Shown here in pieces: positions 5,241 through 42,700 of a stretch of 44,102 nt of DNA. The position numbers and the translations under genes were made by a program. Source of the stretch: Halocafeteria seosinensis (lineage: Eukaryota); assembly GCA_001687465.1 (NCBI GenBank), contig LVLI01000173.1:124001-168102 (forward strand), read 5' to 3'. The notes under the pieces were generated by a model, which was given only the letters and a program-made list of their open reading frames with translations, was not told the DNA's origin and searched no databases. Within the stretch, counting starts at the first letter, position 1, and each line of letters starts with the position of its first letter.

Positions 5241-5282
<42 letters not shown>

Positions 5283-21232: not shown

Positions 21233-21462
21233 CAAGCGAAAAGGCATTTTTACAAGTCAACATTAGCCAACCAGACTCTTTTTGTCGACGGAGGAACCTA
21301 CAGGGTAAAGTGTCTAGGAGCTAAAACACGGAATCCTCGTGCAGAAAAAGTGCTGCTGGTCACGTACAACGTGCTACATGGCATGATGACCGCATTTCGC
21401 CTTAATTTACACTGTGAAAGCAGCACTGGTGCCAACAATGTACTGTAGAGAAAACCACAAGC

Positions 21463-23892
21463 ATGGTCTACTGGATTATGACAGGTCAGCTTCTTCGGAT
21501 GTTGGGGAATCTTCTTTTCATTATGGGGGGATCCTCCCCGAAGATGCGAATGTCAAAACATGTCGATTCACAGACTCCGCACCACCAGCAGAAACAGCAA
21601 CGTAGACTCCCTGTCGATACAGTGGAACCAAAGGACGAAAAGCCAGAGACAGACTCAAAGATACCACAAGCGTATCCTGGATTGAGTAACAAGGAAGACG
21701 AGGAGGAAGACCAGCAGCGGCAAACTCTTAGTGGCGCGCCCCAGTTCTCATCTGAACAGAGGCTCTGGGCAGGAATTGTGCATCATATACTTTGTACACT
21801 ATTCCAAGCACTTCTACCTGTTTGCACAGCCGATGCTATGTTCACCCGCGAAGTCATTGGACACAGGACAAAGACCAGAGTATGCCGAAGGAGAGCTGCA
21901 TATACTAAGGAAACATTGTCGAAGTACTTGACTGGAGCTTTGGTTTTAGTAGCAAATTGTGGCATCCATGCAATGGACCTGCGGGATTCAATTCAAAAGG
22001 AAGGAGAAAGCTGTTTCAAGTATATCGCAACCAAGAGTTTATTCGAGTTGAATTGCACTCTATTGAATTGGCAAATTGCTGGGTATAGCACTGATCATTA
22101 CATTACACTCAAAGCAAACGAAACATTTGATGGGAAAGACAATGAAATTGAGCTCGTGGGTACTGGTGCATTTGAGGGACTCTTCGTGGTAGATTCAAAT
22201 GTTTCGTCCCTGGAAGAAGCTCCAGTCATTCGGAATGTCCATGTAAAGAACGGCGAGACAGCAGAGGATGGAGGGTTCATCGTTCGGTCAAATCAGAGAT
22301 TTTTCGCTGTGGATTCATGTAGCTCTTCAGGAGTAATACATAAAGGTGGAGGTGGAATATGTGGGAGATTGTGCGGTAAAGCAAGGGGTCATATTCTGAT
22401 TTCTGGGTGCAACTCGACAGGCGTTATCAGAGGCAATGATGCCGGTGGGATTTCGGGGGACCATATCGCAGCGACAGACGGTAGAGCAAGAATCGTAGGT
22501 TGTCATTCAGCCGGGAAAGTCGAAGGAAACAACGCAGGGGGTATTGTAGGTAGCAGCGTCGCTTGGCACCATGGTATGGTAGACGTTGTCGAGTGTTTTT
22601 CTACGGGAGACATCGATGGAGCGCGTTCAGGTGGCATTGCGGGTGCTTATGTAGCCCGTGAGGGAGGTAGAGCCAGCATGACTGGTTGCTATTCGACCGG
22701 AGAAATCCGACGAGCCTATTCAGGAGGCATTGCTGGCCACTCTGCAGGCGGTTATAACGGGATATTAACGATTCAGCGATGCCACTCTGAAGGAGATATT
22801 ACAGGAAATTTGGCTGGAGGAATTACAGGGACAGAGGTTGGTACCAATGCTGGACTCGTTACAATACGACGATGCTATTCTAGCGGACAAATCGCGGGAA
22901 GCAAGGCAGGTGGCATCACGGGATCAGAGACCTCAAACTATAATGGGTACACGACAATAGAGCAATGTTACTCTTCAGGAAACATTGATGGTTTTAGCAG
23001 CGGAGGCATATCTGGCTATGCTGCTGGCGAGGATAACGGCAAAGTGGAAATAAGAAATTGCTATTCTACTGGAGGGATCAATGGATCGCATGCCGGGGGT
23101 ATTTGCGGCGGTGGAACGGGACGTGAACGTTGTAATGACTGTAATGGTGGACGGGTCTTTATCACCAATACATATGCGTCTGGTACCATCAAAGATGACG
23201 CCGGCGGAATCCTAGGAGGTATCAGTCCAGAGGCACAAACTGTCGAAGTAAAATACTCTGTGTACGATGGTGTTTCAGGTGATATGGTGGGAGCAGGAGG
23301 AGGATCGGTCAACGATACAGTCCACATCAATAATTCCGATGACTTGAACGACATAAAAGGAAAATTATATCTGCAGGGCGAGAGCAACCACTGGTCGAGT
23401 GATACATGGATTGTAGGACAAAACAATGGATTGCCAAAACTCCGAGTCCGTGCAATAATCACTCCTACGAGCTCTTCGTCTCCGACAACGAGTCCTACCG
23501 AATGGACAACACCAACATCGTCACTAACCACTTCGCCGTTTCCTTCGGAAACTCCTAGCAGCACGCAAACGCTGACCCCGACAGGAACGCCATCTCAATC
23601 GATGACACCAACACCGACATTAACCTCTTCATCGTCTTCTTCAAAAACTCCCACTTGTACGCAAACGTCCACGCCGACTATGACGCAATCTCTAGCGAGG
23701 ACATCAACACAGTCACCAACCTGTTCTTCATCTGCTTCAGAAACTCCTAGCACGCAAACGTCCACGCAGAGGATGACGCGGTCTCGCGTGCGCGCTACAA
23801 AGAGGCTACCAATGCAACGACCTGGAAGGATCTCTACTAGTGGCCATAATGCCAGAGGCAGGACGTCAAAACACAAGCGCCCCGGGATCTAG
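21463..23892 (+). CDS. Single-module GLUG-like Gly-rich protein with S/T/P mucin-like tail and basic C-terminus (up to 809 aa, start uncertain)
   Basis: Intronless ORF with the same module as its neighbours (MDLRDS...CF.Y...ITLKANETFDG...FEGLF...EAPVIRNVH...GGFIVR...; ~26-aa repeats CYSTGxIxxxxAGGIxG; KW...W...LPxLR end). Two hydrophobic segments precede the module. There is no C-terminal TM helix. Confidence 0.88.
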   Translation: MVYWIMTGQLLRMLGNLLFIMGGSSPKMRMSKHVDSQTPHHQQKQQRRLPVDTVEPKDEKPETDSKIPQAYPGLSNKEDEEEDQQRQTLSGAPQFSSEQRLWAGIVHHILCTLFQALLPVCTADAMFTREVIGHRTKTRVCRRRAAYTKETLSKYLTGALVLVANCGIHAMDLRDSIQKEGESCFKYIATKSLFELNCTLLNWQIAGYSTDHYITLKANETFDGKDNEIELVGTGAFEGLFVVDSNVSSLEEAPVIRNVHVKNGETAEDGGFIVRSNQRFFAVDSCSSSGVIHKGGGGICGRLCGKARGHILISGCNSTGVIRGNDAGGISGDHIAATDGRARIVGCHSAGKVEGNNAGGIVGSSVAWHHGMVDVVECFSTGDIDGARSGGIAGAYVAREGGRASMTGCYSTGEIRRAYSGGIAGHSAGGYNGILTIQRCHSEGDITGNLAGGITGTEVGTNAGLVTIRRCYSSGQIAGSKAGGITGSETSNYNGYTTIEQCYSSGNIDGFSSGGISGYAAGEDNGKVEIRNCYSTGGINGSHAGGICGGGTGRERCNDCNGGRVFITNTYASGTIKDDAGGILGGISPEAQTVEVKYSVYDGVSGDMVGAGGGSVNDTVHINNSDDLNDIKGKLYLQGESNHWSSDTWIVGQNNGLPKLRVRAIITPTSSSSPTTSPTEWTTPTSSLTTSPFPSETPSSTQTLTPTGTPSQSMTPTPTLTSSSSSSKTPTCTQTSTPTMTQSLARTSTQSPTCSSSASETPSTQTSTQRMTRSRVRATKRLPMQRPGRISTSGHNARGRTSKHKRPGI

Positions 23893-25932: not shown

Positions 25933-26058
25933 TACCGGTGCAACGACCTCGAAGCAAGGTCATGATTGCTACCGCCAGGGAAGCATAGCCACCGCAGCAT
26001 TTCGGAGACACTCCGCGAAGGTTGTAACTGAGAAGTGTGGCATGGAAAGACAAAAGTT
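25933..26058 (+). pseudogene. Second, more decayed relic of the same gene 3' end
   Basis: Shares taccggtgcaacgacct (17/17), aagcaaggtcatgat, cagcattt and gtaactgagaag in order with 24624-24745. Contains indels. Confidence 0.7.
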
Positions 26059-26632: not shown

Positions 26633-29600
26633 TCACTTCCTTCTTGCCCTTCTCCCTTTTCTAACGCTTCTCAAGTTTACTGGTGTAGATGAGGGGGCGT
26701 TCGTGTCGCCAGGTTCCACGGGCTCTGAAGAATCATCTTTCGTATTTCCAGGGCCAGAAGGCAGCGTTTGTGCAAATTCCTTTTTAGCACCTCGTCCTTT
26801 GTTCAATCCTTTATGGGAATTGTACCGCTCGTGCTTTGCCTCTGCTGAAATCGAACTTCTTATGCTTCCTCGCTTCCTCGCATATTGTAATTGGGGTAAC
26901 CCGGCTGCCGCTGCTACTGCTTGATTCCGCTTTGTTTCTCCATCTTCATCATTGTTAACCTTTACCTCTACTAACGGCGGAGGTTCTGCCAATAGCCTTG
27001 CCTTCCACTGCCGAAGTTTGAGCTTCATTCTATCGGCTGTTCGCATATCGGATTTATCAATGGAACTTGCTAAGGCAACTTGCACAGTGCAATTTCCACT
27101 AACGGATTTTCTTCCTTCGCCTACGTTGGGTTTGTTGATTGATACGACTTTTACCTTGCTGGCCGGGGACGCATACGTTTCCAAATCCACAAACATCACC
27201 TGAGGGATCGTCGAATCATCAACCGTCGCGGCAGCCCCCAATTCCGGGTCATCCGCTGAAGTGTTTCCGGTGCTTATCTGCGAAGAACTAACGTATTCAA
27301 CTATCCTTGCTTTTAAGGTCTGTTCTTGGGCTTTACTCGTTGCTTGAGTTCGCTTCCTATCTCGGTCCATCTCCACAGACGGCAAAGCGCGACTTGAGGA
27401 GGACGAGAGCGGATTGAGATGGGCTACATTCTCCTCTCCTGTAATGTTCTTAGTCCGTACTGCAGACTGCTGTCCCTGGATCAAGGAGCCGGTGTTGCTT
27501 TTCCTAGTCCCTACACTCGAACTGCTCGAAACTGCGCTTTGTCCAATTGCCGATGGACGGGCGTCCATATCTCCAGAAGAGACAGTGAACTTAGATGTAG
27601 GGATACCTAGTTGAGTGGCATATAGTTCTGAGGGATCCCTAAACTTCTTCGAGAGAGTTTGGTTACGAGTGCGTCGGTAGCCAATGAATAGGAACAGCAG
27701 TAAAATAAATCCAGCGATCAGCGAGGGGGCTAGTATTGCCGAAACGGTAGATTGGGGGTCAGCTGCAGACCTCTCCTGTCCAAGCGAAGTACCCCCATCT
27801 GAGGATTCGTTGGCCATCGTAGAAGACACGGTAGATGTCGCCGAACTTATGCCTACGGTCGAAATAGGAGTAGCTGAGATCATTCTCTTAGTGACAGGTG
27901 TACCTGATGACGAAACCATCGCAGTAATTGTCGTTGCCGGAAAAGAGGCACTCGGTGAAATGGACGGAGATGAAGACTGGCTCGGACGCGGAACAGGCTG
28001 CTTTCCTTCGAAGGCCAATGCAGGTGGTTCATCGTACTGGTGTACAGTCCAAATATCTTCAGACCAACTCCAGAGATTATCATGGACGTAAAGCTGGCCT
28101 GTAATGTCTTCCAGATTTGGCGAGTTGCCTCTCTCAATTAAAATTGTCTGATTCGCCACCTCACAACTTGGCGTCCTCCTGTTTTCCCCTCGATACACCG
28201 AAAACTTCAGCTCCACCAAGTTAGGTTCAGTGAACTGACTGTCGAAGACGGACTTCATCGGCACTGCAACAGTTCCAAATACAGGTCCAGAATGAATATC
28301 GGGATAGCCTGATGAATAAACATTACGAACTGTAACATTTCCTCCATGGAGACCTGTACCCCACCCACAAATTCCTCCAGCGGCTTCACCAACAGTACAT
28401 CCTGTAGTATAGCTGTTCACGATAATCAGGTGTCCATATCTCCGGGCAGCCGAGCTACCAGCAATCCCACCACTAAAAAGCCCGCTGATATTCCCATTTG
28501 TATAGCACTGAGATATGTACACCGAACCGTGGTCAAACGCAGACCGTGGTCCAACTATTCCGCCACCCGAGACAGACTTCACTTCTCCTTCCGAGAACGA
28601 CTGAAATACGCGTACCAACCCTTTGTTGGCACCAGCTAGACTACCGCAAATTCCGCCTGCATTTTCCCCATGGATCGTCCCTGTTGAGGAACAACTATTC
28701 ACGTCAGCAAAGCCTCCGTCTTCCGCAGTCCGTCGACCAAATATTCCTCCACCACGAGCACCAATTGTCCCAGTTGAGGACGAATTTACAACCTGCACGT
28801 GCCCTCCTTTTCCTCCGGCATTTTCGCCGCATATACCCCCAGCGCGACGAGCTATATATCCTGTAGAGCTGGAATTCTCAATGACGAAATTGCCTGGACC
28901 GCCTTGGACAATGAACCCGCCTCCAGAAGATGTCCCTCCGTTCTTCATATGCACATTTTGCACTGTTATGGTTCCGTAGCCGTTGTTGGTGTTAGAATCC
29001 CCCGAATTCTCCAACTGGCGGATTGATAAAGACGAACGTGGAACCTCAACACTGTTACTGGTATCACCACCAATTAAACCTGAAAACTCAAACACACTCC
29101 TCATGTCCATTTCATAGTCATTTCCCTCGAATGTTTCGTTCTTCCTCAAAGATATGTAAGCCTCGTTGTCGTAAACGTCCCTCCATCGAAATGAGCACGT
29201 CAGCACAAATAGCATTTCCTCAGGGAGATGAGAAATGCATCCTTCCTTTCCCTGATGTGTTATCATTTGTCGACGGTCACCGGTCAATAGAGGTCTCCCG
29301 CAGCTAGTGTTATATTCCTCTTTCTCAAACTTTAAAATCGGTAAACTATCGCCTTCTTTATGCCAAGTATCATTCGACCATTTTGCCACTATTCCACCAG
29401 GAATATTGAGACTATCATTCACGGCAGACAGCCCGTCGGAGTTTTCTAGTTGAACAAATTTCCCAGTTATGTTTGCATCGGCAACTGGTGGCGCACAGTA
29501 TAAAGAGTTCCTAATCTGGATGGACCTACCAACACTAACACCCAAGAAGCCAACGAGCCCACCACTGCTATTGCCTTCTGTTTTTCCAGATGCGTAACTA

Positions 29601-32600
29601 TTCAAAATAAGAACCTGTCCTCCATGGCTAGCCGTTTGTGCTCCAGAGATTCCTCCTGCTTCATCACCCGAGATGATACCGGTTGTATAGCAATCTAATA
29701 TGCTGCCGACACCGTGATAAGATCCTAAGTCCCCACCACATATCCCACCGCTTCCCTGTCCCTTTATGGCTCCCGCAGAGAACGAAGCTAAAACAACGAC
29801 TGTCCCATTGTCTGAAGCCGCTCGCTTGCCTAAAATGCCACCCGCTTGGGAACCTAGAATGTCCCCTCCGTCTTCTCCACTGTAACAATTCTCAATGTCG
29901 ATACGACCTCGGTGAGCTCCAGCTTCCCTACCAACTATCCCTCCTGCTCCATCACCTGTAATGTTACCGAACGAGGTGGATTTGCGAATAACAACGTGCC
30001 CTCCATAGCTTCCACATTTTGATCCACAAATCCCTCCACCTCCCGGATAGTTGACTCCACCAATGGTCCCTCTCGAACCACAACACTCAATTACAGCAAA
30101 CATTTGATTCTTTCGAAGAATGAACCCTCCGTCCGTATTTGTGGCACCGCCGACAGTTCCAACATTCCTAATAATTGGCGCTTCGTCAAACGACGTCACG
30201 CTTTCACGATCCACCGAAAATATGCCGTTGAATTGTTTGCTGTCACTAAGATGGATTAGATAGTTGTTTCCCTCAAATATCTCATATGCTTTCAACGAAA
30301 GATACATGCTTCCGCTATAGTACCTTCCCCATTCGAAATCGCAAGTCAATTGAAACCTCCTTATAGCATGCTCATACGTTATACACTCCGATATTTCAGT
30401 TCCATCCAAGACTGAGGTCCGCAGATCTTGTCGAACTTGGGGCCACTCGTCTCGGGATAAATGAGAAAGAGATGAGTTGGCGGATTCCCCGATTTGGTAA
30501 CGCAAATATGGGAACTCACCCGCGGACCCGGCAACCCAGATGGTCTCAGACCATCTATATTCAGACGCCGCAGACGATACGTTGTACAATTGCCCTCTAA
30601 TTGAACTCAACTGATCTGAATTACCCGTCGCAGTAATGTTTTGAAACCCCTCTGAGAATAAAGGAGGCAGCGCAACCGCTAACTTGATGTTAACCGAATC
30701 AATTGCTTCCCACATGATCCCTGCGGCGCCGTCCACGATACTTCCAGAAGCATAAGCCCGCTCTATCGAGACTAAACCAGTCTTTTTGCCAAGGATACCC
30801 CCTGATTTCCAACCACTGATTTCTCCACGTGAGTACGAGTCTGCGATTGTAGTGCCAGGGTTCGTACCCGTACCCGTCTTTTGACCTCCTATCCCACCAC
30901 TCTCACTTCCAATATTACCCAGAGAAAAACATTCCGATATCTCTACGGAGCCCGATGCTTGTCCAATGATTCCGCCGCTGCCACCGTCTTCTATAGCGCC
31001 TGTCGAGTACGATTTTGAAATCGCTACCTTCCCTTTGAACGAACGACCAGCCCGCGCACCGACTATGCCTCCTGCTCCATCACCTCCTATTTTCCCAGTC
31101 GAGTAGCAGTTGGACAACACAGCTTTACTTGGTCGATAATCAAACTCACCACCAGTGGTATTACACCCAGCGATTCCACCCCCCAAACGATCTATCGTAC
31201 CGGAGGAGCTACATGAATCAACTGTAAAATTGGTTTGACCTTTACGTACGATAAACCCGCCGCCGGGAACCGTCTTGCCACCGTCAGTATGTAAGTTGAT
31301 GATGCGCGGTGCCTCACTAAACCGATGAATTCCCCAATTACTGATTGCAAACAATCCTCTGAAGGTTTTTATAGTCCAAAGATTAATGCGATGATTATTT
31401 CCATCAAAGACTTCTCCAGGAGCGAGAGTAATGTATGCCTTCCCTTGATTGTATTCTCGCCACACAAGGTTCTCGCAAACCAGTTGAAACAATAGTTTAC
31501 TACCATTGTAGTGAATGCACTCATCGTCGTTGTCTCGAAAAGAGTCAGCCATATCCCGAGCCTCATCTGCGGATACGCTTTGTTGTTGTACCAGTTCTCG
31601 AGATACCGGCGGATGCCGTGCCGACGCACACTCCAAACGAGACTTCCGATCCAACAGCGGACGTAGAGTGGGCAACTCCCGATCCTGAAATGACAGGATA
31701 GGAGGCTCGTCCATTACACACTGCCAAATAGCGCTAGACCATTGTACGTTCTCTCCAAATTGATACAGACGACTATCAATATCATCTAGATCATCTGAAT
31801 TGCCTTCGGAGACAGTAATCAGCTCCCCCGTGCTTTGGCCAGAAATGGGTGGAGAAGAGACGGAGTACTTGATTTCTACATGCTCTGCTGGCCTCCATAT
31901 GTTAAGCCCATCGGATACTGTCGCCAACATTCCACCACTTCGATCTTCTTCTTTGACCATGCCAGAAGCGTAACTCGTGTGGATCAGTAGCCTGCCTCCA
32001 TCGATTCCAGCGCGATGCCCGCAGAGACCACCGGCTTCCTTTCCCAATATATCACCACGTGAATAGGAATTGCGAATTTCCACGCTTCCACCGTTCGCTC
32101 CTGTATCAGCTCCACAGATGCCCCCACCTCCTCTACACTTAATGCTACCTTCCGAGTACGCTTGCGAAACCGTTACACTCCCGCGCTCCAGCCCGGCGTT
32201 GTCGCCGACAATACCGCCACTGGAAGTTCCTTCGATGTTTCCTAGTGAAGCCGAACGAAAGATACACACGCTTCCTTTTGATTTACCGGTATCACTTCCC
32301 GCGATACCACCTGCTTTGTAGCCTTGAACGTGGCCATTCGACATAGAGTTTGAGAGTCCTTCTAGACCATCTTCGTGAGTAGAGGACGCCAGAGGCTCCG
32401 CAGGGGCGTCACATGGAGACGAAGAACTCATACTAACGGTACCTCTTGTGGGTGACCGCATGGCACCCGAAACTATACCGACGCCATTCTCAGAGGCAAA
32501 ATCACTACCCACAATCCCTCCGGCATGATCTCCCGTGATCTCTCCGAACGAAGAGCACGTCATGATTTGAACGTGTCCTCTTGAGCCACATTTATACCCG

Positions 32601-35600
32601 CATATACCACCGGCACCCCAACCGTTAATAGCCCCAGTTGAACTACAACCGAAGACTATCGCATACTGCGTTTCTTCCCTCAGTATGAAACCACCTGTAT
32701 CGGCAACGATACCATTTACTGTTGCAACATCTCGGACCATAGGAGCCTTGTCAATGGAGTCAACCGACCGGTCGATGGCAAACAGCCCCGCAAATTCCGA
32801 CGTTGCCGACAGATTGATGACACTATGCCCACCATCAATTGTCTCATCAGCGCGCAGTGAAATATATGCATCATCAGTGTAATTTGAATCCTTCCAGTGA
32901 CAGTCCATTTTCAAAACGATTACAGCCTCAAGGTTTTCTATTTTTTCCCCCGAACACTTCCTGTATTCGAAGCACGGATCCCTTCCGGCAATTACTGAAG
33001 CCCTTCTGTCCCCTGTTCTTGCCTGAAACCAAAAGATTGGCGGCTCTGTGTTCCTATGCATCCAAACGTCACTAGGCCAACGAGATACGCCATTCAATTT
33101 GTATAGCTTTCCTTGAATCATGCTTACATTACGTGCAAGACCTACAATCCGCGGGGAGGACCCAAATCCCACAACCGGTTGAGACCATGAAACCGAGTAT
33201 TTCAGCTCAACGTCCGGGGAGCCAGTTTCCATACTACCTAGAATTCCACCACCAACTTTTTCATACATATCTCCCGAAGCATAACAATTTGTGATGGACA
33301 CGCTACCATTCCAAACCGCAGTGTAGCCTCCGAGTATACCACCTGAATAGTCTCCCTTAATATCACCTGTAGTGTAACTGTTCCGAACCCCTAGCATGCC
33401 ATCAGAGGATGCCGCGAACGAACCACTGATGCCGCCACTCCTATCACCGATAGCATAGCCAATTGTATAGCACTGCTCAATTTGTGCTGTGCCATTCTTC
33501 GCCGCAAACGAACCACATACTCCTCCAGCACCACCACCTTTTATCCTTCCACTGGAAGATGACCGGCTTATTGCAGCATAGCCTCCCCAGGCGCTTGGTT
33601 CCGAACCAGTTATGCCACCAGCTCCGTCCCCTTCAATTGCTCCAGTGGAAATGGAGTCAAGAATTTCGATATGTCCTCCACTAGATCCACACCTACGACC
33701 ACATAGTCCACCGCTGTTAGTGCCTGCACTAGTTCCCGAAGAGCTGCATGATTCCATTCTGAAAAATCTCTGCCAGCTTCGCACGAGAAACGACCCATTA
33801 TCCCCCGTTTGTCCATCTCTTGTATGGACGTTTCGAATAATCGGTGCTTCTCTGACAGACGAAACGCTGCTATTTACAACAAATATCCCTTCGAATCCAT
33901 CAACACATTGGAGAGCAATTTCGTAACCCCCGCCATCGAACGCCTCACCAGCATTCAGCGTAATGAATGAGCTCGGATCGAAATAATCACTCCAGAGGAA
34001 GCTGCAAGTTTGCTCAAACGTGTATGTAGATATATTGTACATTAAACAAGGCACAATACCCTCATCGTTTACGAATGAACGAATGTCGCTCCGGTAATGA
34101 GTTCTCGACAAACTGTTTGGTTGTGGGTCACCACTGGAGACATTATGCTTCTGAAACTGTAGCTCAGGAAACCTGTCGTTTGTAGGAACCATCCAAATAT
34201 TATCACTCCATCGTTGAAGACCGAATGAGTGCAGCAAAGATCCTTGAATGGCATTCAATGAATCTGCGTTCCCTATCGAGCAGGAGATGTAAGCAGCATT
34301 ATTTCCAATAAGTTTTTCTGGGGATGGCGCGGAAAACCTAATGTATATCTGCGGATGAGATATCTCTATAGGACTATCTGTGCGTTCCAATCTCCGGGCT
34401 GGCGGATCTTGTCTTTCCCCACTCGAATACACATTTTCGATCTGTATAATGCCACCGGACATACCCGGATTTGCACCGCAAATTCCTCCTACGTCTCCCC
34501 ACAGTAAATCTCCGGTACTATAACAGTCTTTTATGCTCACAGTTCCTCCGTTACTTCCACACGAACTCCCGCATATCCCACCTCCGTCGGCTTGTATCAT
34601 CCCTGTGGAATAACATTCCCAAACAAATACTAACCCCTCGTCGGAGGCGGCCAGTTTTCCCAAAATGCCGCCACTTCCTGGGCATCCAATATTGCCCCTT
34701 GAAAAGGAACGAATTACTTCTAACCTCCCTCGATTGGATGCTGCTTTCTGGCCAACTATTCCACCGGATCCTTTACCGTTGACCTGTCCATGTGAAAATG
34801 AATTGGTAATCTTGACGCGTCCCCCGCCATGTCCGCAGTTTGCTCCACAGATCCCACCTCCTCCATCAGTTATTTCACCGGTAGACGAGCAAGACAAAAT
34901 TTTCCCAAACGTTTGCCCATTACGCAGAATATAGCCAGCTTGAGGTTCGATACTGCCGTGCTCCAGGTGGACGTTGCGTATTAGTGGGGCTTCCTCGAAA
35001 GACGTCACATGTTGACCCACCTCAAAGAGTCCTTTAAATGCATCAGTACGCTCCAGATCAATAATGTAGTCATTTCCCTCGAAAGTCTCATTCAATGTCA
35101 ATTGAATGTAATCATCGCTGGTGTACCCGAATGCACTCCAAGAGAAATCGCACTGGAGCAAGAACATCTTTTCACCAGGATCGAAAACAATGCAGGAAGA
35201 GTTGTTCGCAAGTACGACTTCGCGTAAGTCTCGGGAGCATACAGACTGGTATGAACTCGTCAAAACAGCAAGAAAACAGATATGAATAGACGATGCCGGG
35301 TGTTTGAAGAGCGGCTTCCTTTGCCTCTGACGTTTAGTCGTCGCCTTTATGAGATCTGACAAGAGTATGGTGACAAGAGCAGACAAAAATAGGACACGTT
35401 TCCAGCCACTCGGGTTTTTATATCCACCCGCATCATGCTCCAGTGAGCCCTCTTGCTCTACTTTACTGACGTCGTTTCTTCCGGCAGGATCAATAGTGCT
35501 AACACAGGTGCTTCGTCTCGTAGCACTTGTCCTAAGTGAATCGTATGTGAGGCAAGACGCGATGCTCTCATGTTTTCTGAATAACTGCCTGTCGTGCGGG

Positions 35601-36010
35601 GGGCTGCGCTCGTTATATTCTTCTCCCAAACTCCAGCTCGGCTTCTCTTGCTCATCAACACCCCCACGGGCAATCTTCTGCTCATTCCCGATCGGAGTAA
35701 CTTTAGCAGCCACAGTGGAACTTCGAGTAGTTGCTTTATCACCTTGAACCAAGGTGCATTGGTGATGCCCCACTAACGGACAATACCCCCTCAAGGTGGA
35801 GGAGTCAGTGCCAGAATTCCACTTCTGTGCCACTTCATTTAGTAGTACAGCTTGTCCGTCGTGACGATGGAGCGCACCGCATTCCTCATGATGAGCTGTA
35901 CGTTTGCTACTGCATTGTTCCATAGTGGAGAGAACTCTGCTTGAATACTGCCGTTTAGCACAGTCGCCACAGGCACAGTGGGGTTCCTGTCCCGCTGGCA
36001 TCACCTGCAT
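26633..36010 (-). CDS. Giant six-module GLUG-like type-I membrane protein, copy A (~3125 aa from first ATG)
   Basis: Uninterrupted 9.4-kb ORF. The ORF track start at 36067 is TTG and the first ATG is at 36010. Modules start near 35235 (RDLREV), 34090 (SDIRSF), 33012 (GDRRAS), 31560 (RDMADS), 30432 (QDLRTS) and 29282 (GDRRQM). An S/T stalk, TM ILAPSLIAGFILLLFLFIGY (~27678-27743) and a ~345-aa tail follow. Confidence 0.92.
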   Translation of the reverse strand: MQVMPAGQEPHCACGDCAKRQYSSRVLSTMEQCSSKRTAHHEECGALHRHDGQAVLLNEVAQKWNSGTDSSTLRGYCPLVGHHQCTLVQGDKATTRSSTVAAKVTPIGNEQKIARGGVDEQEKPSWSLGEEYNERSPPHDRQLFRKHESIASCLTYDSLRTSATRRSTCVSTIDPAGRNDVSKVEQEGSLEHDAGGYKNPSGWKRVLFLSALVTILLSDLIKATTKRQRQRKPLFKHPASSIHICFLAVLTSSYQSVCSRDLREVVLANNSSCIVFDPGEKMFLLQCDFSWSAFGYTSDDYIQLTLNETFEGNDYIIDLERTDAFKGLFEVGQHVTSFEEAPLIRNVHLEHGSIEPQAGYILRNGQTFGKILSCSSTGEITDGGGGICGANCGHGGGRVKITNSFSHGQVNGKGSGGIVGQKAASNRGRLEVIRSFSRGNIGCPGSGGILGKLAASDEGLVFVWECYSTGMIQADGGGICGSSCGSNGGTVSIKDCYSTGDLLWGDVGGICGANPGMSGGIIQIENVYSSGERQDPPARRLERTDSPIEISHPQIYIRFSAPSPEKLIGNNAAYISCSIGNADSLNAIQGSLLHSFGLQRWSDNIWMVPTNDRFPELQFQKHNVSSGDPQPNSLSRTHYRSDIRSFVNDEGIVPCLMYNISTYTFEQTCSFLWSDYFDPSSFITLNAGEAFDGGGYEIALQCVDGFEGIFVVNSSVSSVREAPIIRNVHTRDGQTGDNGSFLVRSWQRFFRMESCSSSGTSAGTNSGGLCGRRCGSSGGHIEILDSISTGAIEGDGAGGITGSEPSAWGGYAAISRSSSSGRIKGGGAGGVCGSFAAKNGTAQIEQCYTIGYAIGDRSGGISGSFAASSDGMLGVRNSYTTGDIKGDYSGGILGGYTAVWNGSVSITNCYASGDMYEKVGGGILGSMETGSPDVELKYSVSWSQPVVGFGSSPRIVGLARNVSMIQGKLYKLNGVSRWPSDVWMHRNTEPPIFWFQARTGDRRASVIAGRDPCFEYRKCSGEKIENLEAVIVLKMDCHWKDSNYTDDAYISLRADETIDGGHSVINLSATSEFAGLFAIDRSVDSIDKAPMVRDVATVNGIVADTGGFILREETQYAIVFGCSSTGAINGWGAGGICGYKCGSRGHVQIMTCSSFGEITGDHAGGIVGSDFASENGVGIVSGAMRSPTRGTVSMSSSSPCDAPAEPLASSTHEDGLEGLSNSMSNGHVQGYKAGGIAGSDTGKSKGSVCIFRSASLGNIEGTSSGGIVGDNAGLERGSVTVSQAYSEGSIKCRGGGGICGADTGANGGSVEIRNSYSRGDILGKEAGGLCGHRAGIDGGRLLIHTSYASGMVKEEDRSGGMLATVSDGLNIWRPAEHVEIKYSVSSPPISGQSTGELITVSEGNSDDLDDIDSRLYQFGENVQWSSAIWQCVMDEPPILSFQDRELPTLRPLLDRKSRLECASARHPPVSRELVQQQSVSADEARDMADSFRDNDDECIHYNGSKLLFQLVCENLVWREYNQGKAYITLAPGEVFDGNNHRINLWTIKTFRGLFAISNWGIHRFSEAPRIINLHTDGGKTVPGGGFIVRKGQTNFTVDSCSSSGTIDRLGGGIAGCNTTGGEFDYRPSKAVLSNCYSTGKIGGDGAGGIVGARAGRSFKGKVAISKSYSTGAIEDGGSGGIIGQASGSVEISECFSLGNIGSESGGIGGQKTGTGTNPGTTIADSYSRGEISGWKSGGILGKKTGLVSIERAYASGSIVDGAAGIMWEAIDSVNIKLAVALPPLFSEGFQNITATGNSDQLSSIRGQLYNVSSAASEYRWSETIWVAGSAGEFPYLRYQIGESANSSLSHLSRDEWPQVRQDLRTSVLDGTEISECITYEHAIRRFQLTCDFEWGRYYSGSMYLSLKAYEIFEGNNYLIHLSDSKQFNGIFSVDRESVTSFDEAPIIRNVGTVGGATNTDGGFILRKNQMFAVIECCGSRGTIGGVNYPGGGGICGSKCGSYGGHVVIRKSTSFGNITGDGAGGIVGREAGAHRGRIDIENCYSGEDGGDILGSQAGGILGKRAASDNGTVVVLASFSAGAIKGQGSGGICGGDLGSYHGVGSILDCYTTGIISGDEAGGISGAQTASHGGQVLILNSYASGKTEGNSSGGLVGFLGVSVGRSIQIRNSLYCAPPVADANITGKFVQLENSDGLSAVNDSLNIPGGIVAKWSNDTWHKEGDSLPILKFEKEEYNTSCGRPLLTGDRRQMITHQGKEGCISHLPEEMLFVLTCSFRWRDVYDNEAYISLRKNETFEGNDYEMDMRSVFEFSGLIGGDTSNSVEVPRSSLSIRQLENSGDSNTNNGYGTITVQNVHMKNGGTSSGGGFIVQGGPGNFVIENSSSTGYIARRAGGICGENAGGKGGHVQVVNSSSTGTIGARGGGIFGRRTAEDGGFADVNSCSSTGTIHGENAGGICGSLAGANKGLVRVFQSFSEGEVKSVSGGGIVGPRSAFDHGSVYISQCYTNGNISGLFSGGIAGSSAARRYGHLIIVNSYTTGCTVGEAAGGICGWGTGLHGGNVTVRNVYSSGYPDIHSGPVFGTVAVPMKSVFDSQFTEPNLVELKFSVYRGENRRTPSCEVANQTILIERGNSPNLEDITGQLYVHDNLWSWSEDIWTVHQYDEPPALAFEGKQPVPRPSQSSSPSISPSASFPATTITAMVSSSGTPVTKRMISATPISTVGISSATSTVSSTMANESSDGGTSLGQERSAADPQSTVSAILAPSLIAGFILLLFLFIGYRRTRNQTLSKKFRDPSELYATQLGIPTSKFTVSSGDMDARPSAIGQSAVSSSSSVGTRKSNTGSLIQGQQSAVRTKNITGEENVAHLNPLSSSSSRALPSVEMDRDRKRTQATSKAQEQTLKARIVEYVSSSQISTGNTSADDPELGAAATVDDSTIPQVMFVDLETYASPASKVKVVSINKPNVGEGRKSVSGNCTVQVALASSIDKSDMRTADRMKLKLRQWKARLLAEPPPLVEVKVNNDEDGETKRNQAVAAAAGLPQLQYARKRGSIRSSISAEAKHERYNSHKGLNKGRGAKKEFAQTLPSGPGNTKDDSSEPVEPGDTNAPSSTPVNLRSVRKGRRARRK

Positions 36011-36701
36011 TTCGATACACACAACGTTATGCACTCTATTCCAAAAAGTCTCCGTTCGTGTAACCAATAAACTATCCTATGGCAAAAATATAGCCTATAT
36101 ACTGTAGCCCAGGGACTTCATGTACGCCACGAATGAAAAAAGTTGTTGAAGGTCGCATGCCTGCTTGCGATCAAGACCGTGTGAAACATGGAGACGCGAG
36201 ATATCTTCTTAAAGAAAAAGGATGCAAAGGAAAACAGGTTTCTTCAGCTATGTCTACCAGTAGGTAAAACATGAGACATGCAAGGAGAAGGCCGGCCCAA
36301 GGGAGAAAGGAAGTTTTAACGGCTCGCAAAGTGGAGCCGTTAAGCGGCTCGGCAAACCACAACAACAGCACCAGCATGCTGCCATAGATGGCAACCAACC
36401 ACCACTACTGGAAGTTCGGTTTTGTGTTCTAGATATTCTGATCATACGCTCAAAACTTCGCGCGACCAAGATACGGGCACTCTTGGGTACCGACAGCGCG
36501 GCGGAGAGGGAGTCACACGGGCAAAAGGCTCACCAGAAGCATATACAGTATAGGTACAATAACCACGGTACAAAGCACAAGATCGTACAAGGCAGGTGCG
36601 TGCGTACGTCATCGCTGGTTTGCCACTCTAAAGAATTTCAGCAAAAAAAAGATGCTTCAACCGATTCCCCAACGGTAGGTCACGAACGACTCACCAACAC
36701 C

Positions 36702-39700
36702 CTACTTCACCTGAGTCCGTCGGCTACCTTGTCGCATGTCTCTCAAGCTTAGCCTTGCCGATTTCTTCAGGGAGTTTGAAGCAGTACTGCCGAATTTCAA
36801 AGCACCATCGTCCGTCTCCGACACGTCGTACTCCGAAATAGCAGAACCAGACGGAAGTGCTTGTCCAAATTCTTTCTTTGCAACTTTTTTCCTTTTAAAT
36901 CCCCTACTGGAATTGTAATGCTGGTTTGTAGCGTCAGCGGAGAATGGATTTCTTCCCTTTTTCGTCCCATACTGACACTGGGTAACCGGTTGTGCCCGCT
37001 TTTTCTCTTCTCGATCAGAGTTATCCTCCTTTTCCATTTCTATCTCAACCAAAGGCGGTGGTTCCGCCAATACCCTCGCCTTCCACTGCCGGATTCTAAG
37101 CTTCATTGTATCCGCTCTTCGCATGTCTGGATTCTCGATCGAACTTGCCAATGCAACTTGAATAGTCCCCCCTGAAGATTTGTGGCCTTGTCTTACGTTT
37201 GGTGTGTTGACAGATACAACCTTTACGGTGCTTGACTCGGGTCCGCGAGATGCCAAATCAACAAACTTCACCTGAGGTATAGCAGAATCATCCACAGCCG
37301 TGGGAGATCCAATTTCCGCGTCTGTTGTGGATGCTTTCCCGGTTAGAATGTTAGAGGGTTTCAGACGTTTAATAACCCTGGCGCTCTGCTTCTCCTCTTG
37401 GGGTTTGGCTGTTGTTTGAGTTTGCTGCTTGTCTCGATCCATACTAGGGGACTGGACTGCTCGACTCGGAACGGATGCGAGCGGATTGGCATGCGCTATA
37501 CTCCCTTCCTCGAGCACAACATCCTTGCGTTGGACGCCAGACTGTTGCACATGGTTTACGCGGCTACTCTTACTTTGCCAAGCCATCAGACTGAAGCTAC
37601 TCGAAACGGCATCGCCTACAGTCACTGGTACTGCTCCCATATCGCCTGAAGAAATACTGAATTTGTTAGCCGGGATACCCAAATGGACAGCGTATAATTC
37701 CGCAGGGTCTCTGACATTCTTAGCAATAATCTGGTTGCGGGTGCGTCGGTAGATAATGAAAAAAAGAAGCACCAATGCTAGCCCTATGATAAAGCCTGGA
37801 GGTAGAACTGTGGAAACTGGGACGGGTTCACCAACTGTAGGCCACCCTTCTCGTATAGAGCCAGTATCATCGGAGGTCGTTCCGTTTCTCCCAGTCCTAG
37901 ATGGACTTCCAGTTGTAATAATGGACGGTGTACTTGATTGGGAAACCGTAACAGTTCCCGTTGCCTTTACAGTAGATGAGGGGCTCGGGGAAATGGATGG
38001 AGAATTGCTTGAAGCTGGAGCAGTTTTCTTTCCTTCGAAGGCTAATGAAGGTGGTCTATCGTGTCGGTATATCATCCAAACATCTTCAGACCAACGTTGC
38101 AAATTCGCGAACACGTAAAGTCGACCAACGATGTCGCCGACAGTTGGAGAGTTCCCCTTCTGCACTAAAACAGTCTGATTAGTCGCTTCAAAACTTGGTG
38201 CCCTCCCATTGTTTCCTCGATACACCGAAAACTTCAGCTCCACCAAGTTAGGTTCAGTGAACTGACTGTCAAAGACGGACTTCATCGGCACTGCAACACT
38301 TCCAAATACAGGTCCAGAATGAATATCGGGATAGCCTGATGAATAAACATTACGAACTGTAATATTTCCCCCATGGAGACCTGTACCCCACCCGCAAATT
38401 CCTCCAGCGGCTTCACCAACAATACCTCCTGTAGTATAGCTGTTCACGATAATCAGGTGTCCATATCTCCGGGCAGCCGAGCTACCAGCAATCCCACCAC
38501 TGAAAAGCCCGCGGATATTCCCATTTGTATAGCACTGAGATATGTACACCGAACCATGGTCAAACGCAGGCCGTGGTCCAACTATCCCGCCACCCGAGAC
38601 AGACTTCACTTCTCCTTCCGAGAACGACTGAAACACGCGTACCAACCCTCTGTTGGCACCAGCTAGACTACCGCAAATTCCGCCTGAATTTTCCCCATGG
38701 ATCGTCCCAGTTGAGGAACAACTATTCACGTCAGCAATGCCTCCATTTTCTGCAGCCCGTCGACCAAATATTCCTCCGCCACGAGCACCAATGGTCCCAG
38801 TTGAGGATGAATTTACAACCTGCACATGCCCTCCATTTCCTCCGGTATTTTCGCCGCATATACCCCCAGCGCGACGAGCTATATATCCTGTAGAGCTAGA
38901 ATTCTCGATGACGAAATTGCCTGGACCGCCTTGGACAATGAACCCGCCTCCAGAAGATGTCCCTCCGTTCTTCATATGCACATTCTGCACTGTTATGGTT
39001 CCGCAATCGCTTTTGGTGTTAGAATCCCCCGAATTCTCCAATTGGCGGATTGATAAAGATAAACGTGGAAACTCAACACTGTTACTGGTATCACCACCAA
39101 TTAACCCTAGAAACTCAAACACACTCCTCATGTCAATTTCATAGTCATTTCCCTCGAATGTTTCGTTCTTCCTCAAAGATATATAAGCCTCGTTGTCGTA
39201 AACGTCCCTCCATCGAAATGAGCACGTCAGCACAAATAGCATTTCCTCAGGGAGATAAGAAATGCATCCTTCGTTTCCCTGACGTATTATCATTTGTCGA
39301 CGGTCACCGGTCAATAGAGGTCTCCCGCAGCTAGTGTTATATTCCTCTTTCTCAAACATTAGAATCGGTAAACTATAGCCTGCTTTATGCCAAGTATCAT
39401 TCGACCATTTTGCCACTATTCCGCCAGGAATATTGAGACTATCATTCACTGCAGACAGCTCGTCGGAGTTTTCTAGTTGAACAAATTTCCCAGTCATGTT
39501 TGCATCGGCAACTGGTGGCGCACAGTATAAAGAGTTCTTAATCTGGATGGACCTACCAACACTAACACCCAAGAAGCCAACGAGCCCACCACTGCTAGTG
39601 CCTTCTGTTTTTCCAGATGCGTAACTATTCAAAATAAGAACCTGTCCTCCATGGCTAGCCGTTTGTGCTCCAGATATTCCTCCTGCTTCATCACCTGAGA

Positions 39701-42700
39701 TGATACCGGTTGTATAGCAATCTAATATGCTGCCGACACCGTGATAGGATCCTAAGTCCCCACCACATATCCCACCGCTTCCCTGTCCCTTTATGGACCC
39801 CGCAGAGAACGAGGCTAAAACAACGACTGTCCCATTGTCTGAAGCCGCTCGCTTGCCTAAAATGCCACCCGCTTGGGAACCTAGAATGTCCCCTTCGTCT
39901 TCTCCACTGTAACAATTCTCAATGTCGATACGACCTCGGTGAGCTCCAGCTTCCCTACCAGCTATCCCTCCTGCTCCATCACCTGTAATGTTACCGAACG
40001 AGGTGGATTTCCGAATAACAACGTGCCCTCCATAGCTTCCACATTTTGATCCACAAATCCCTCCACCTCCCGGATAGTTGACTCCACCAATGGTCCCTCT
40101 CGAACCACAACACTCAATTACAGCAAACGTTTGATTCTTTCGAAGAATGAACCCTCCGTCCGTATTTGTGGCACCGCCGACAGTTCCAACATTCCTAATA
40201 ATTGGCGCTTCGTCAAACGAGGTCACGCTTTGACGGTCCACCGAAAATATGCCGTTGAATTGCTTGCTGTCACTAAGATGGATTAGATAGTTGTTTCCCT
40301 CAAATACCTCATATGCTTTCAACGAGAGATACATGCTTCCGCTATAGTACCTTCCCCATTCGAAATCGCAAGTCAATTGAAACCTCCTTATAGCATGCTC
40401 ATACGTTATACACCCCGATATTTCAGTTCCATCCAAGACTGAGGTCCGCAGATCTTGTCGAACTTGGGGCCACTCGTCTCGGGATAAATGAGGAAGAGAT
40501 GAGTTGGCGGATTCCCCGATTTGGTAACGCAAATATGGGAACTCACCCGCGGGCCCGGCCACCCAGATCGTCTCAGACCATCTATGTTCAGACGCTGCAG
40601 ACGATACGCTGTACAATTGCCCTCTAATTGAACTCAACTGATCTGAATTACCCGTCGCAGTAACGTTTTGAAACCCCTCTGAGAATAAAGGAGGCAGCGC
40701 AACCGCTAACTTGATATTGACCGAATCAATTGCTTCCCACATGATTCCTGCGGCGCCGTCAACGATACTTCCAGAAGCATAAGCCCGCTCTACCGAGACT
40801 AAACCAGTCTTCTTGCTAAGGATACCCCCTGATTTCCAACCACTGATTTCTCCACGTGAGTACGAGTCTGCGATTGTAGTGCCAGGGTTCGTACCCGTAC
40901 CCGTCTTTTGACCTCCTATCCCACCACTCTCACTTCCAATATTACCCACAGAAAAACATTCCGATATCTCTACGGAGCCCGATGCTTGTCCAATGATTCC
41001 GCCGCTGCCACCGTCTTCTATAGCGCCTGTCGAGTACGATTTTGAAATCGCTACCTTCCCTTTGAACGAACGACCAGCCCGGGCACCCACTATGCCTCCT
41101 GCTCCATCACCTCCTATTTTCCCAGTCGAGTAGCAGTTGGACAACACAGCTTTACTTGGTCGATAATCAAACTCACCACCAGCGGTATTACGCCCAGCGA
41201 TTCCACCCCCCAAACGATCTATCGTACCGGAGGAGCTACATGAATCAACTGTAAAATTGGTTTGACCTTTACGTACGATAAACCCGCCCCCGGGAACCGT
41301 CTTGCCACCGTCAGTATGTAAGTTGATGATGCGCGGTGCCTCACTAAACCGATGAATTCCCCAATTACTGATTGCAAACAATCCTCTGAAGGTTTTTATA
41401 GTCCAAAGATTAATGCGATGATTATTTCCATCAAAGACTTCTCCAGGAGCGAGAGTAATGTATGCCTTCCCTTGGTTATATTTTCGCCACACAAGGTTCT
41501 CGCAAACCAGTTGAAACAATAGTTTACTACCATTGTAGTGAATGCACTCATCGTCGTTGTCTCGAAAAGAGTCAGCCATATCCCGAGCCTCATCTGCGGA
41601 TATGCTTTGTTGTTGGACCAGTTCTCGGGGTACCGGCGGATGCCGTGCCGACGCACACTCCAAACGAGATTTCCGATCAAACAGCTGACGAAGAGTGGGC
41701 AACTCCCGATCCTGAAAAGACAGGATAGGAGGCTCGTCCATTACACACTGCCAAATAGCGCTAGACCATTGTACGTTCTCTCCAAATTGATACAGACAAC
41801 TATCAATATCATCTAGATCATCTGAATTGCCTTCGGAGACAGTAATCAGTTCCCCCGTGCTTTGGCCAGAAATGGGTGGAGAAGAGACGGAGTACTTAAT
41901 TTCTACATGCTCTGCTGGCCTCCATTTGTTAAGCCCATCGGATACTGTCGCCAACATTCCACCACTTCGATCTTCTTCTTTGATCATGCCAGAAGCGTAA
42001 CTCGTGTGAATCAGTAGCCTGCCTCCATCGATTCCAGCGCGATGCCCGCAGAGACCACCGGCTTCCTTCCCCAATATATCACCACGTGAATAGGAATTGC
42101 GAATTTCCACGCTTCCACCGTTCGCTCCTGTATCAGCTCCACAGATGCCCCCACCTCCTCTACACTTAATGCTACCTTCCGAGTACGCTTGCGAAACCGT
42201 TACACTCCCGCGCTCCAGCCCGGCGTTGTCGCCGACAATACCGCCACTGTAAGTTCCTTCGATGTTTCCTAGTGAAGCCGAACGGAAGATACACACGTTC
42301 CCTTTTGATTTACCGGTATCACTTCCCGCGATACCACCTGCTTTGTAGCCTTGAACGTGGCCATTCGACATAGAGTTTGAGAGTCCTTCTAGACCATCTT
42401 CGTGAGTAGAGGACGCCAGAGGCTCCGCAGGGCCGTCACATGGAGACGAAGAACTCATACTAACGGTACCTCTTGTGGGTGACCGCATGGCACCCGAAAC
42501 TATACCGACGCCATTCTCAGAGGCAAAATCGCTACCCACAATCCCTCCGGCATTATCTCCCGTGATCTCTCCGAACGAAGAGCACGTCGTGATTTGAACG
42601 TGTCCTTTTGAGCCACATTTGTACCCGCATATACCACCGGCACCCCAACCGTTAATAGCCCCAGTTGAACTACAACCAAAGACTATCGCATACTGCGTTT

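What the first reader, a model, noticed from the sequence alone, without database searches (positions are those of the whole stretch)
28005..35235. A ~400-aa GLUG-like module used in 1, 3, 6 and >=5 copies defines a clustered surface-protein family
Seen: 15 module copies in four genes. Each has a fixed N-cap (D-L/R-R...C..Y...F...C...W...YI.L...E.FDG..Y.I.L...F.G.F...EAP.I.NV...GG.T...GFI), ~26-aa Gly-rich repeats (CYS.G.I....AGGI.G) and a C-cap (GNS..L..I.G.LY......W....W.......P.L.FQ). The module-coding DNA has no introns, although other genes here are spliced. Established: GLUG-type motifs (Pfam GLUG) are typical of bacterial and archaeal surface proteins. Inference: a horizontally acquired (bacterial or giant-virus) beta-helix that has been expanded into eukaryotic adhesins or receptors.
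Basis: partly seen in the sequence, partly recalled or inferred. Interest (0 to 1): 0.7.

Follow-up and report, generated by a model that had tools for sequence, protein, structure and literature searches.

The report
Giant-virus beta-helix in protist surface proteins
Four clustered genes of a single-celled eukaryote carry 15 copies of a ~400-residue module predicted to fold as a capped beta-helix; its closest relatives found are giant-virus proteins rather than bacterial ones, and the host likely took it from such a virus and likely uses it as the binding part of its surface proteins.

Summary
In detail: 15 modules in four genes (1, 3, 6, at least 5), 34-48% identical, each in one open frame. 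The repeat is 31 aa, not 26, and Pfam GLUG is not met (1 of 10 modules, below cut-off). One module folds confidently (pLDDT 93) as a right-handed beta-helix closest to the non-catalytic IgA1-protease (M26) N-terminal domain. Best viral structural matches are two CroV proteins. Giant-virus contigs (beside PolB, capsid, Rpb2) carry the same module with both caps and score about 220 bits; 802 sampled bacterial genomes reach at most 66. All eukaryote-type modules form one clade (98-99%). It nests among viral ones in free trees, but AU tests do not reject a sister position (p 0.58), so the direction of transfer is unproven. Relatives (112 proteins, 27 named hits from one EukProt transcriptome) place the module on secreted, single-pass and multi-pass proteins. 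Gene A splices 29 one-exon LRRs onto three modules. Genes C and D share a 96%-identical ectodomain but have long-diverged tails, which points to gene conversion. Best reading: a non-catalytic adhesin or receptor ectodomain shared with, and probably captured from, giant viruses. No ligand is known.

The parts
26633..36076 (-). Gene C open frame (3147 aa stop to stop): about 280-aa leader with two hydrophobic stretches, six beta-helix modules, Ser/Thr/Pro stalk, one TM segment, about 350-aa tail. True start not determined.
34142..35233 (-). Module C1 (364 aa)
33011..34090 (-). Module C2 (360 aa)
31673..32989 (-). Module C3 (439 aa)
30485..31558 (-). Module C4 (358 aa); the only module with a Pfam Glug hit, below cut-off
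29312..30427 (-). Module C5 (372 aa); AlphaFold2 model pLDDT 93, right-handed beta-helix
27998..29281 (-). Module C6 (428 aa); identity to D5 falls from about 95% to about 69% (aa) at the C-cap
27677..27997 (-). Gene C Ser/Thr/Pro stalk and predicted transmembrane segment (aa about 2776-2800)
26633..27676 (-). Gene C predicted cytoplasmic tail with family motifs LYAxxLGI, NPL, LRQWKARLLAEPPP, KKEF; mostly low-confidence in the model, one small confident core (tail aa 160-241)
36702..44102 (-). Gene D (5' end beyond the window): five modules 43038-44102, 41700-43016, 40512-41585, 39339-40454, 38025-39308, stalk, TM, tail. 37927-44102 is 95.9% identical to 27897-34075 of gene C; tail 52% aa identical, dS about 1.8
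21418..23892 (+). Gene B: leader with two hydrophobic stretches, one long module (21976-23460, 495 aa), Ser/Thr/Pro stalk, C-terminal LPMQRP motif, no TM after the module. Closest relative P0002 (44% overall, 67-71% in aligned module columns)
62..5213 (-). Gene A last exon: end of LRR region, Pro/Thr linker, modules A1 3698-5020, A2 2444-3721, A3 1259-2458, stalk, TM (about 830-901), tail
5302..9914 (-). Gene A upstream exons: signal-like first exon, 29 LRR exons (mostly 72 nt) and one Cys-rich exon, 31 introns of 56-88 nt; nine introns seen as joints in spliced contigs, including the one that joins the LRR exons to the module exon (5301 to 5212). Boundaries of exon 1 and the Cys-rich exon are approximate.

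Best explanation
The module is a ~400-residue unit predicted to fold as a capped right-handed beta-helix of 31-residue coils; it is shared with giant viruses, was likely captured from one, and likely serves as a non-catalytic binding rod on the outside of this protist's surface proteins. Shown: 15 copies in four host genes; stalk, TM segment and conserved tail in A, C and D; a spliced LRR array fused to the modules in A; homologues with both caps in giant-virus contigs; one eukaryote-type clade; purifying selection and recent homogenisation between C and D. Predicted: the fold. Inferred: (1) route from bacterial GLUG/M26-type beta-helix through giant viruses to one protist lineage, probably a Halocafeteria-like bicosoecid; (2) after one capture the module was copied in tandem and shuffled onto secreted (B type), single-pass (A, C, D type) and multi-pass host proteins; (3) Gly, Cys, Ser and aliphatic positions build the core while the variable positions form a binding face for prey, substrate or virus glycans or proteins; (4) tandem modules and the stalk hold that face tens of nanometres from the membrane, and the tail motifs couple binding to uptake or signalling.
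For: Fold: pLDDT 93.4, pTM 0.93; best PDB matches 7uvk Z 22.8 (rmsd 4.0, 272 aligned), 3n6z Z 20.7, 7jgj Z 19.5, 3n6z the only Foldseek hit under E 0.001. In S. pneumoniae IgA1 protease this beta-helix is a gating domain and the catalytic residues lie in other domains (PMC7695701, passages). Viral link: best BFVD hits CroV E3T4R2 and E3T4G7, E 7e-12 and 2e-11, TMq 0.70 and 0.65; 26 of 26 IMG/VR loci from a repeat-motif scan hold a matching ORF; four tandem paralogues beside PolB in L012/L013, one beside PolB and RNase III in L041, one beside Rpb2 in L048, one near capsid and VLTF3 in L001; L012/L013 and L041 have the C-cap too. Best single-domain scores against profile A1: eukaryote-type median 328, L012 219, L013 217, GTDB loci at most 63; 24 of 401 and 26 of 401 sampled genomes of two bacterial phyla match, best 53.5 and 66 bits. 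The one bacterial MAG with a 205-bit match also holds a giant-virus capsid gene. Trees: eukaryote-type clade 0.996, 99 and 98, nested among viral rows. Architecture: of 116 eukaryote-type proteins (4 from the window) 28 have a TM after the modules, 11 of them with 4-6 TM peaks; tails align on shared motifs. Splicing and transcription of gene A: nine GT-AG joints in contigs of X2-X4. C versus D: dN/dS 0.36 at dS 0.05 in modules, 0.20 at dS 1.8 in tails. Conserved columns are almost all Gly, Cys, Ser and hydrophobic; variable coil positions have 3.5-4 bits entropy.
Against: Direction is not established: the constrained tree with eukaryote-type rows plus bacteria on one side is slightly better than the free tree in both data sets (lnL +4.7, p-AU 0.582; +3.8, p-AU 0.579), and the eukaryote clade sits in an unresolved fork. 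Alignments are short (139-277 columns). A Flavobacterium chromosome holds a module that groups with viral type I, so some bacteria carry the virus-like form. The nearest tree neighbours (P0130, P0173, P0048, P0059 and others) have no genomic context; their viral status is inferred from DUF4347 or Hint domains or tree position. The eukaryotic status of the ENA proteins is likewise inferred. Many beta-helical enzymes score Z 17-20, close behind the top hits, and Glu51 (96%) and His89 (86%) are conserved in the N-cap. No ligand, localisation or binding data exist. No sign of diversifying selection between C and D (dN/dS 0.25-0.51 per module). Lack of introns is weak evidence in this genome.
Confidence: 0.6

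Rival explanations
1. Opposite or parallel route: an ancestral protist took the beta-helix from bacteria and giant viruses took it from the host, or both lineages got it from one unsampled bacterial or viral source. The protein would still be a surface binding module.
For: AU tests cannot reject eukaryote-type modules as sister to all viral ones, and that tree has the higher likelihood. A Flavobacterium chromosome holds a related form. Bacterial sampling was limited: one exact-pattern scan of GTDB (6 loci) and 802 genomes of two phyla.
Against: Viral forms are much more diverse and widespread (two types, 20 IMG/VR contigs, 46 metagenome loci, CroV and weaker phaeovirus matches), while the eukaryote form was found under one named transcriptome only. 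Free trees nest it among viral rows.
Confidence: 0.25
2. Anti-viral decoy: the viral protein is a virion-surface or attachment fibre, and host copies (above all the secreted B type) occupy the virus's receptor or bind the virion.
For: Closest viral structures come from CroV, which infects a bicosoecid (host relation as stated in bioRxiv 10.64898/2026.07.28.741278 section 9). Viral versions reach 3048 aa with dozens of coils and occur in tandem arrays. 88 of 116 eukaryote-type proteins show no TM after the module (some are truncated).
Against: No evidence that the viral proteins are in virions. No positive selection between C and D. Fusion to LRR arrays, long tails and multi-pass domains fits general sensing or adhesion better.
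Confidence: 0.12
3. The modules are secreted or surface-bound polysaccharide lyases or hydrolases that digest prey capsules or biofilm.
For: The fold is shared with pectate lyases, GH28, GH87 and tailspikes (Z 17-20.6). Glu51 and His89 are conserved among eukaryote-type modules.
Against: No enzyme family in Pfam. No conserved Asp, Lys or Arg on the coils. His89 is replaced by Gly in the L012/L013 viral rows. The best structural matches are the non-catalytic M26 domain. Six tandem copies at 38% identity suit a rod more than an enzyme.
Confidence: 0.08
4. The region is a piece of endogenous giant virus, or D is an assembly duplicate of C.
For: Virus-like module; 95.9% identity over 6.18 kb between C and D.
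Against: No viral hallmark gene among the long ORFs; neighbours are a spliced MFS transporter and a spliced 1700-aa gene; GC 45-52% throughout; window proteins lack the viral DUF4347 and Hint domains; C and D tails differ at dS 1.8 with open frames and dN/dS 0.2, which an allele would not show.
Confidence: 0.05

Closest known systems
GLUG motif (PF07581) and Peptidase M26 N-terminal beta-helix (PF05342; PDB 3n6z, 7uvk, 7jgj)
   Same: Predicted right-handed beta-helix (Z 19.5-22.8); similar N-cap order FDG-x-I-x-GLF-x-I-x-N-x-GG; Atlas feature hits to Glug and M26_N clusters at 0.95-0.96.
   Different: 14-19% identity; 31-aa coils against the 28-position Pfam motif; Pfam cut-off not met; no protease domain; eukaryotic; extra Cys ladder and a distinct Trp-x4-Trp C-cap.
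Giant-virus (Nucleocytoviricota) DUF4347 / beta-helix / Hint proteins, including CroV E3T4R2 and E3T4G7
   Same: Same N-cap, coils and, in the L012/L013/L041/P0201 type, the same C-cap; tandem modules and tandem genes; TMq 0.65-0.70 to the CroV models.
   Different: Viral proteins carry DUF4347, Hint, LamG or decapeptide repeats; the ones read in full lack the host TM and tail; host proteins have leaders, stalks, TM segments, tails and LRRs. No paper describing the viral family was found.
EukProt GECG01 transcript family (recalled as the Halocafeteria seosinensis transcriptome; the prefix was not confirmed by any search)
   Same: 27 named members with this module or tail; same three architectures; P0002 pairs with gene B at 98-100% support.
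   Different: None of the first 245 hits is over 50% identical to a window protein in its best alignment, so the window's species is left open. The preprint 10.64898/2026.07.28.741278 mentions about 250 H. seosinensis proteins weakly similar to CroV paralogues of unknown function; whether these are this family could not be checked (supplements closed).
Beta-helical bacterial adhesins such as PfbA (3zpp, 4mr0)
   Same: Surface-anchored beta-helix on a stalk; Z 18.8-19.9.
   Different: 11-12% identity; single domain; cell-wall anchor instead of TM and tail.

Membership tests
Pfam Glug (PF07581) | Score at or above the gathering cut-off of 20.5 bits | tested here: not met
   1 of 10 modules at 16.6 bits; 0 of 4 whole ORFs. 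Some viral homologues do pass: P0207 37, L018 46, L041 34 bits.
GLUG / M26 N-terminal beta-helix fold group | Right-handed parallel beta-helix closest to 3n6z and IgA1-protease N-terminal domains | tested here: met
   Predicted model of one module (C5). Other beta-helices follow within 1-3 Z units.
GLUG / M26 N-terminal beta-helix fold group | Sequence homology to bacterial members | tested here: met
   Profile A1 finds 50 of 802 bacterial genomes at E <= 0.001, 18-66 bits; N-caps align. No match to these PDB chains by sequence.
M26 IgA1 metalloprotease | Catalytic middle and C-terminal domains | tested here: not met
   No M26 Pfam hit; protein length is accounted for by leader, modules, stalk, TM and tail.
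Giant-virus DUF4347/beta-helix/Hint proteins | Shared capped beta-helix module | tested here: met
   Viral-only profile scores 15 of 15 window modules at 37-77 bits, shuffles 4.4.
Giant-virus DUF4347/beta-helix/Hint proteins | DUF4347 N-terminus or Hint C-terminus, and viral gene neighbourhood | tested here: not met
   None in window ORFs; neighbours are spliced host genes.
Virus-to-host gene transfer | Host clade nested in viral clade with the alternative rejected | tested here: inconclusive
   Nested in free trees, unresolved; alternative not rejected, p-AU 0.58.
Beta-helical polysaccharide lyases and hydrolases | Conserved catalytic Asp/Glu/Lys/Arg/His cluster in the groove | tested here: inconclusive
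   Only Glu51 and His89 in the N-cap are conserved charged residues; none on the coils.
Adhesin or receptor | Surface localisation and ligand binding | not testable with these tools
   Only architecture (stalk, TM, tail, 16-36 N-glycosylation sequons in A and C).

The most novel reading that the evidence does not exclude
A giant-virus surface beta-helix was captured once by a bacterivorous protist lineage and became the ligand-binding module of a large, undescribed host receptor repertoire: secreted forms, single-pass receptors with a new conserved tail domain, LRR fusions and multi-pass proteins, reshuffled by tandem duplication and gene conversion. It may be what lies behind the roughly 250 unexplained CroV-like proteins reported in Halocafeteria, and could act in prey recognition or as a decoy against the viruses it came from.
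Probability: 0.45. Interest if true: 0.75.

Novelty: new variant of a known kind. Interest (0 to 1): 0.58.

Why it matters
Giant viruses are known to trade genes with protists, but a viral domain that becomes the core of a whole host surface-protein family, with host signalling parts added, would be a clear case of domestication. It gives concrete candidates for how a bacterivorous flagellate recognises prey or viruses, links a large uncharacterised giant-virus protein family (two CroV members) to a fold, and makes the CroV-like proteins noted in Halocafeteria testable. If the direction is the reverse, it still identifies a host-derived family that spread widely in giant viruses.

Tried and rejected
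No whole genome is held, so the genome-wide count could not be made. Pfam found nothing on the whole ORFs A-D and only one significant family (Kelch_4, P0232) among 30 long relatives. PDB sequence search gave one chance hit. The search for related loci: no usable stretch in A1; P0129 and A3 found nothing in viral contigs. Viral records L010, L012, L014, L018 are not held as genomes, so their viral nature rests on IMG/VR listing and neighbouring genes. The tail: no Atlas hit, one homologue in a region search, itself a family fragment, low-confidence model (pLDDT 58.6), no fold match; this shows no new fold. No RNA holder is on record for the stretch; X2-X4 are treated as RNA-like only because their contigs skip GT-AG introns. 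Coverage and splicing of genes B, C, D were not obtained, so their expression, starts and the C-D order are untested. GC3 of modules (0.40-0.44) is a little under that of the LRR part, tail and neighbour gene (0.47-0.50); not used as evidence because of the Gly-rich make-up. Of 24 codons with X1 differences in gene A's last exon 13 change the amino acid (only the listed 24 of more differences); too few to test selection. Tree rows: L001 and L048 were dropped before the AU test and from the tree; L098, L095, P0316 and P0326 were left out; P0103 had no N-domain hit. The 'bits' column printed the profile length and was ignored. Papers: ten searches found no description of this family; PMC2984142 is not held. 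Earlier findings: none. No tRNA genes. Complex prediction was not used, as no partner is known.


Full report
Observation. The window holds four long frames with the module: A (62-5524, minus, three copies), B (21418-23892, plus, one), C (26633-36076, minus, six) and D (36702-44102, minus, five, cut by the window end). The finding's coordinates are the six modules of C. Ten non-redundant modules align over N-cap, coils and C-cap at 34-48% identity. The coil period is 31 residues, not 26. Independent profiles recover the modules far above shuffled controls: 100-144 bits for 13 of 15 with a profile from 136 non-window eukaryote-type rows, 37-77 bits for 15 of 15 with a profile from 31 viral rows, against 3.5-4.4 bits on 50 shuffles. 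Pfam Glug touches 1 of 10 modules, below cut-off.

Gene anatomy. A, C and D end in a Ser/Thr/Pro stalk, one hydrophobic segment and a 260-350-aa tail with shared motifs. B has a stalk and a short C-terminal motif but no TM after the module. Gene A continues upstream through 31 short introns: a signal-like first exon, 29 LRR exons of mostly 72 nt and one Cys-rich exon, about 2590 aa in all (two exon boundaries are approximate and my model reads that one exon out of frame). Contigs of runs X2-X4 skip nine of these introns at GT-AG, and one contig of X2 (depth 3.2, 29 letters on the short side) joins the last LRR exon to the module exon. So the locus is eukaryotic, A is transcribed, and an intron-rich LRR array is fused to an intron-free module exon; the fusion joint rests on a single low-depth contig plus an in-frame model. 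C and D are 95.9% identical over 6.18 kb, with dS 0.05 and dN/dS 0.36 in the modules, but dS 1.8 and dN/dS 0.20 in the tails; the switch lies near C residue 2600. This fits old paralogues whose ectodomains were recently homogenised, not an allele.

Fold. Module C5, folded with a 59-row alignment, gave pLDDT 93.4 and pTM 0.93 with a strand pattern repeating every 31 residues. All top matches are right-handed beta-helices; the best are IgA1-protease N-terminal domains and 3n6z (Z 22.8, 20.7, 19.5), with glycosidases, lyases, PfbA and tailspikes close behind at Z 17-20.6. In the pneumococcal enzyme this domain gates the active site and holds no catalytic residues (PMC7695701, passages seen). Across 151 eukaryote-type N-domains the conserved columns are Gly, Cys, Ser and hydrophobic, plus Tyr20, Glu51, Pro83, His89 and Thr95; across 944 coils the variable positions are close to random. 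A binding or scaffold role is therefore more likely than catalysis, but catalysis is not excluded.

Eukaryote-type relatives. Two length-limited searches listed 120 of 343 and 120 of 501 hits; a full profile search found 7408 cluster representatives at E <= 0.001 and listed 150. All 21 EukProt rows in the two lists are GECG01 transcripts; look-ups add six more. I recall GECG01 as the Halocafeteria seosinensis transcriptome; searches did not confirm it. The rest of this type are unnamed ENA or Logan proteins on contigs of up to 165 kb. None of the first 245 hits exceeds 50% identity to the window; the closest is P0002 to gene B. Of 116 proteins of this type (4 from the window), 88 show no TM after the modules (some truncated), 16 show one, one shows two and 11 show four to six TM peaks after a Cys-rich region. 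The host is thus inferred to be a Halocafeteria-like bicosoecid; the window's GC of 45-52% is compatible with the 46.8% reported for H. seosinensis (bioRxiv 10.64898/2026.06.25.734631, parts 1-2 of 3 read).

Viral relatives. The best viral structural matches are two Hint-domain proteins of Cafeteria roenbergensis virus (E 7e-12 and 2e-11). A repeat-motif scan gave 26 IMG/VR loci on 20 contigs, each with a matching ORF, and 6 loci in GTDB. A metagenome scan gave 46 loci. Neighbours include capsid and VLTF3 (L001), PolB (L008, L012, L041), D5 primase (L009), Rpb2 (L048) and Erv1. One viral type shares the host N-cap almost motif for motif and, in L012/L013, L041 and P0201, the C-cap as well. Viral genes occur in tandem and can extend to 3048 aa of coils. 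Single-domain scores separate three tiers: eukaryote-type 172-417 bits, virus-type up to 244 (219 for a locus with context), sampled bacteria at most 66. The one bacterial MAG with virus-level scores has them on 1.6 and 3.3 kb contigs and also contains a giant-virus capsid gene.

Direction. Eukaryote-type modules are one clade in all three trees. With 407 rows and with 21 bacterial outgroup rows the clade nests among viral type II rows, at moderate support (82-89). However, forcing eukaryote-type and bacterial rows together is not rejected and scores slightly higher (p-AU 0.582 and 0.579). A Flavobacterium protein groups with viral type I. So the sharing with giant viruses is well supported; virus to host is favoured by distribution and diversity only. 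I put it at about 60-65%.

How it most likely works. Each module would be a rigid rod of about ten coils (roughly 5 nm by the usual 0.48-nm rise, from general knowledge), closed by the two caps so that modules can be chained. Six modules and a glycosylated stalk would reach well beyond the membrane. Variable coil positions would form the binding face; the TM and tail motifs would pass binding on to uptake or signalling. Tandem duplication, shuffling onto LRR and multi-pass proteins and gene conversion would diversify the repertoire. All of this paragraph is inference. Rivals are host-to-virus or parallel origin (0.25), anti-viral decoy (0.12), polysaccharide-degrading enzyme (0.08) and endogenous virus or assembly artefact (0.05).

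What is in print. Ten searches found no paper on this module in protists or giant viruses. bioRxiv 10.64898/2026.07.28.741278 (section 9 and passages) reports about 250 H. seosinensis proteins weakly similar to CroV paralogues of unknown function, without naming them; its supplements are closed, so overlap with this family is possible but unchecked. PMC5447177 (passages) has no occurrence of GLUG, adhesin or virus. PMC4987115 and PMC5294986 were seen in passages only. Other papers were seen as search listings only.

Verdict. A real, apparently undescribed protist surface-protein family built on a known fold, whose nearest kin are giant-virus proteins. New variant of a known kind; interest 0.58.

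Noticed in passing
window 5302-9914 (-): 29 LRRs, nearly all encoded one per 72-nt exon with 56-88-nt introns in the same phase, split by a Cys-rich exon; a layout suited to exon shuffling.
   Followed up: partly
window 12820-18022 (-): About 1700-aa gene in one 5-kb frame with an internally duplicated helical region, a weak Arm_3 hit and a C-terminus that looks like a PH domain (by eye); one intron 12821-12890 seen in three runs, contig depth 39-64.
   Followed up: no
window 18825-20697 (-): MFS / sugar-transporter-type gene with two introns.
   Followed up: no
window 11382-11530 and 12257-12405; 24624-24743 and 25933-26038; 20530-20632 and 26101-26200: Short dispersed repeats of 71-80% identity; the 24.6 and 25.9 kb copies resemble the 3' end of gene B by eye, perhaps relics of further family members.
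   Followed up: no
window 8183-8503: A contig of run X4 with depth about 1470 matches 319 bases of gene A, intron included, and then runs into unrelated sequence.
   Followed up: no
window 35233-36076 (-) and 21418-21975 (+): Genes C and B, like many relatives, have long leaders with two hydrophobic stretches just before the first module; true starts and topology are unresolved.
   Followed up: partly
window 26636-27679 (-), tail aa 160-241: Small confidently predicted core (four strands, one helix) in an otherwise disordered tail, conserved in 15 aligned tails, with no fold or family match.
   Followed up: partly
P0138, P0188, P0199 and eight similar proteins: About 2000-aa proteins with the module, stalk, Cys-rich region and a multi-pass C-terminus; no Pfam hit.
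   Followed up: partly
L040:9720-18863 (+): 3048-aa virus-type protein that is almost all coils after a DUF4347-like start, followed by a paralogue; a candidate long fibre.
   Followed up: no
G005 (L033, L034, L081): A GTDB proteobacterial MAG holds small contigs with virus-type modules and a giant-virus capsid gene; likely mis-binned viral DNA.
   Followed up: yes
L030:2568-4481 (-): Flavobacterium faecale chromosome encodes a two-module protein that groups with viral type I; a possible virus-bacterium exchange.
   Followed up: partly
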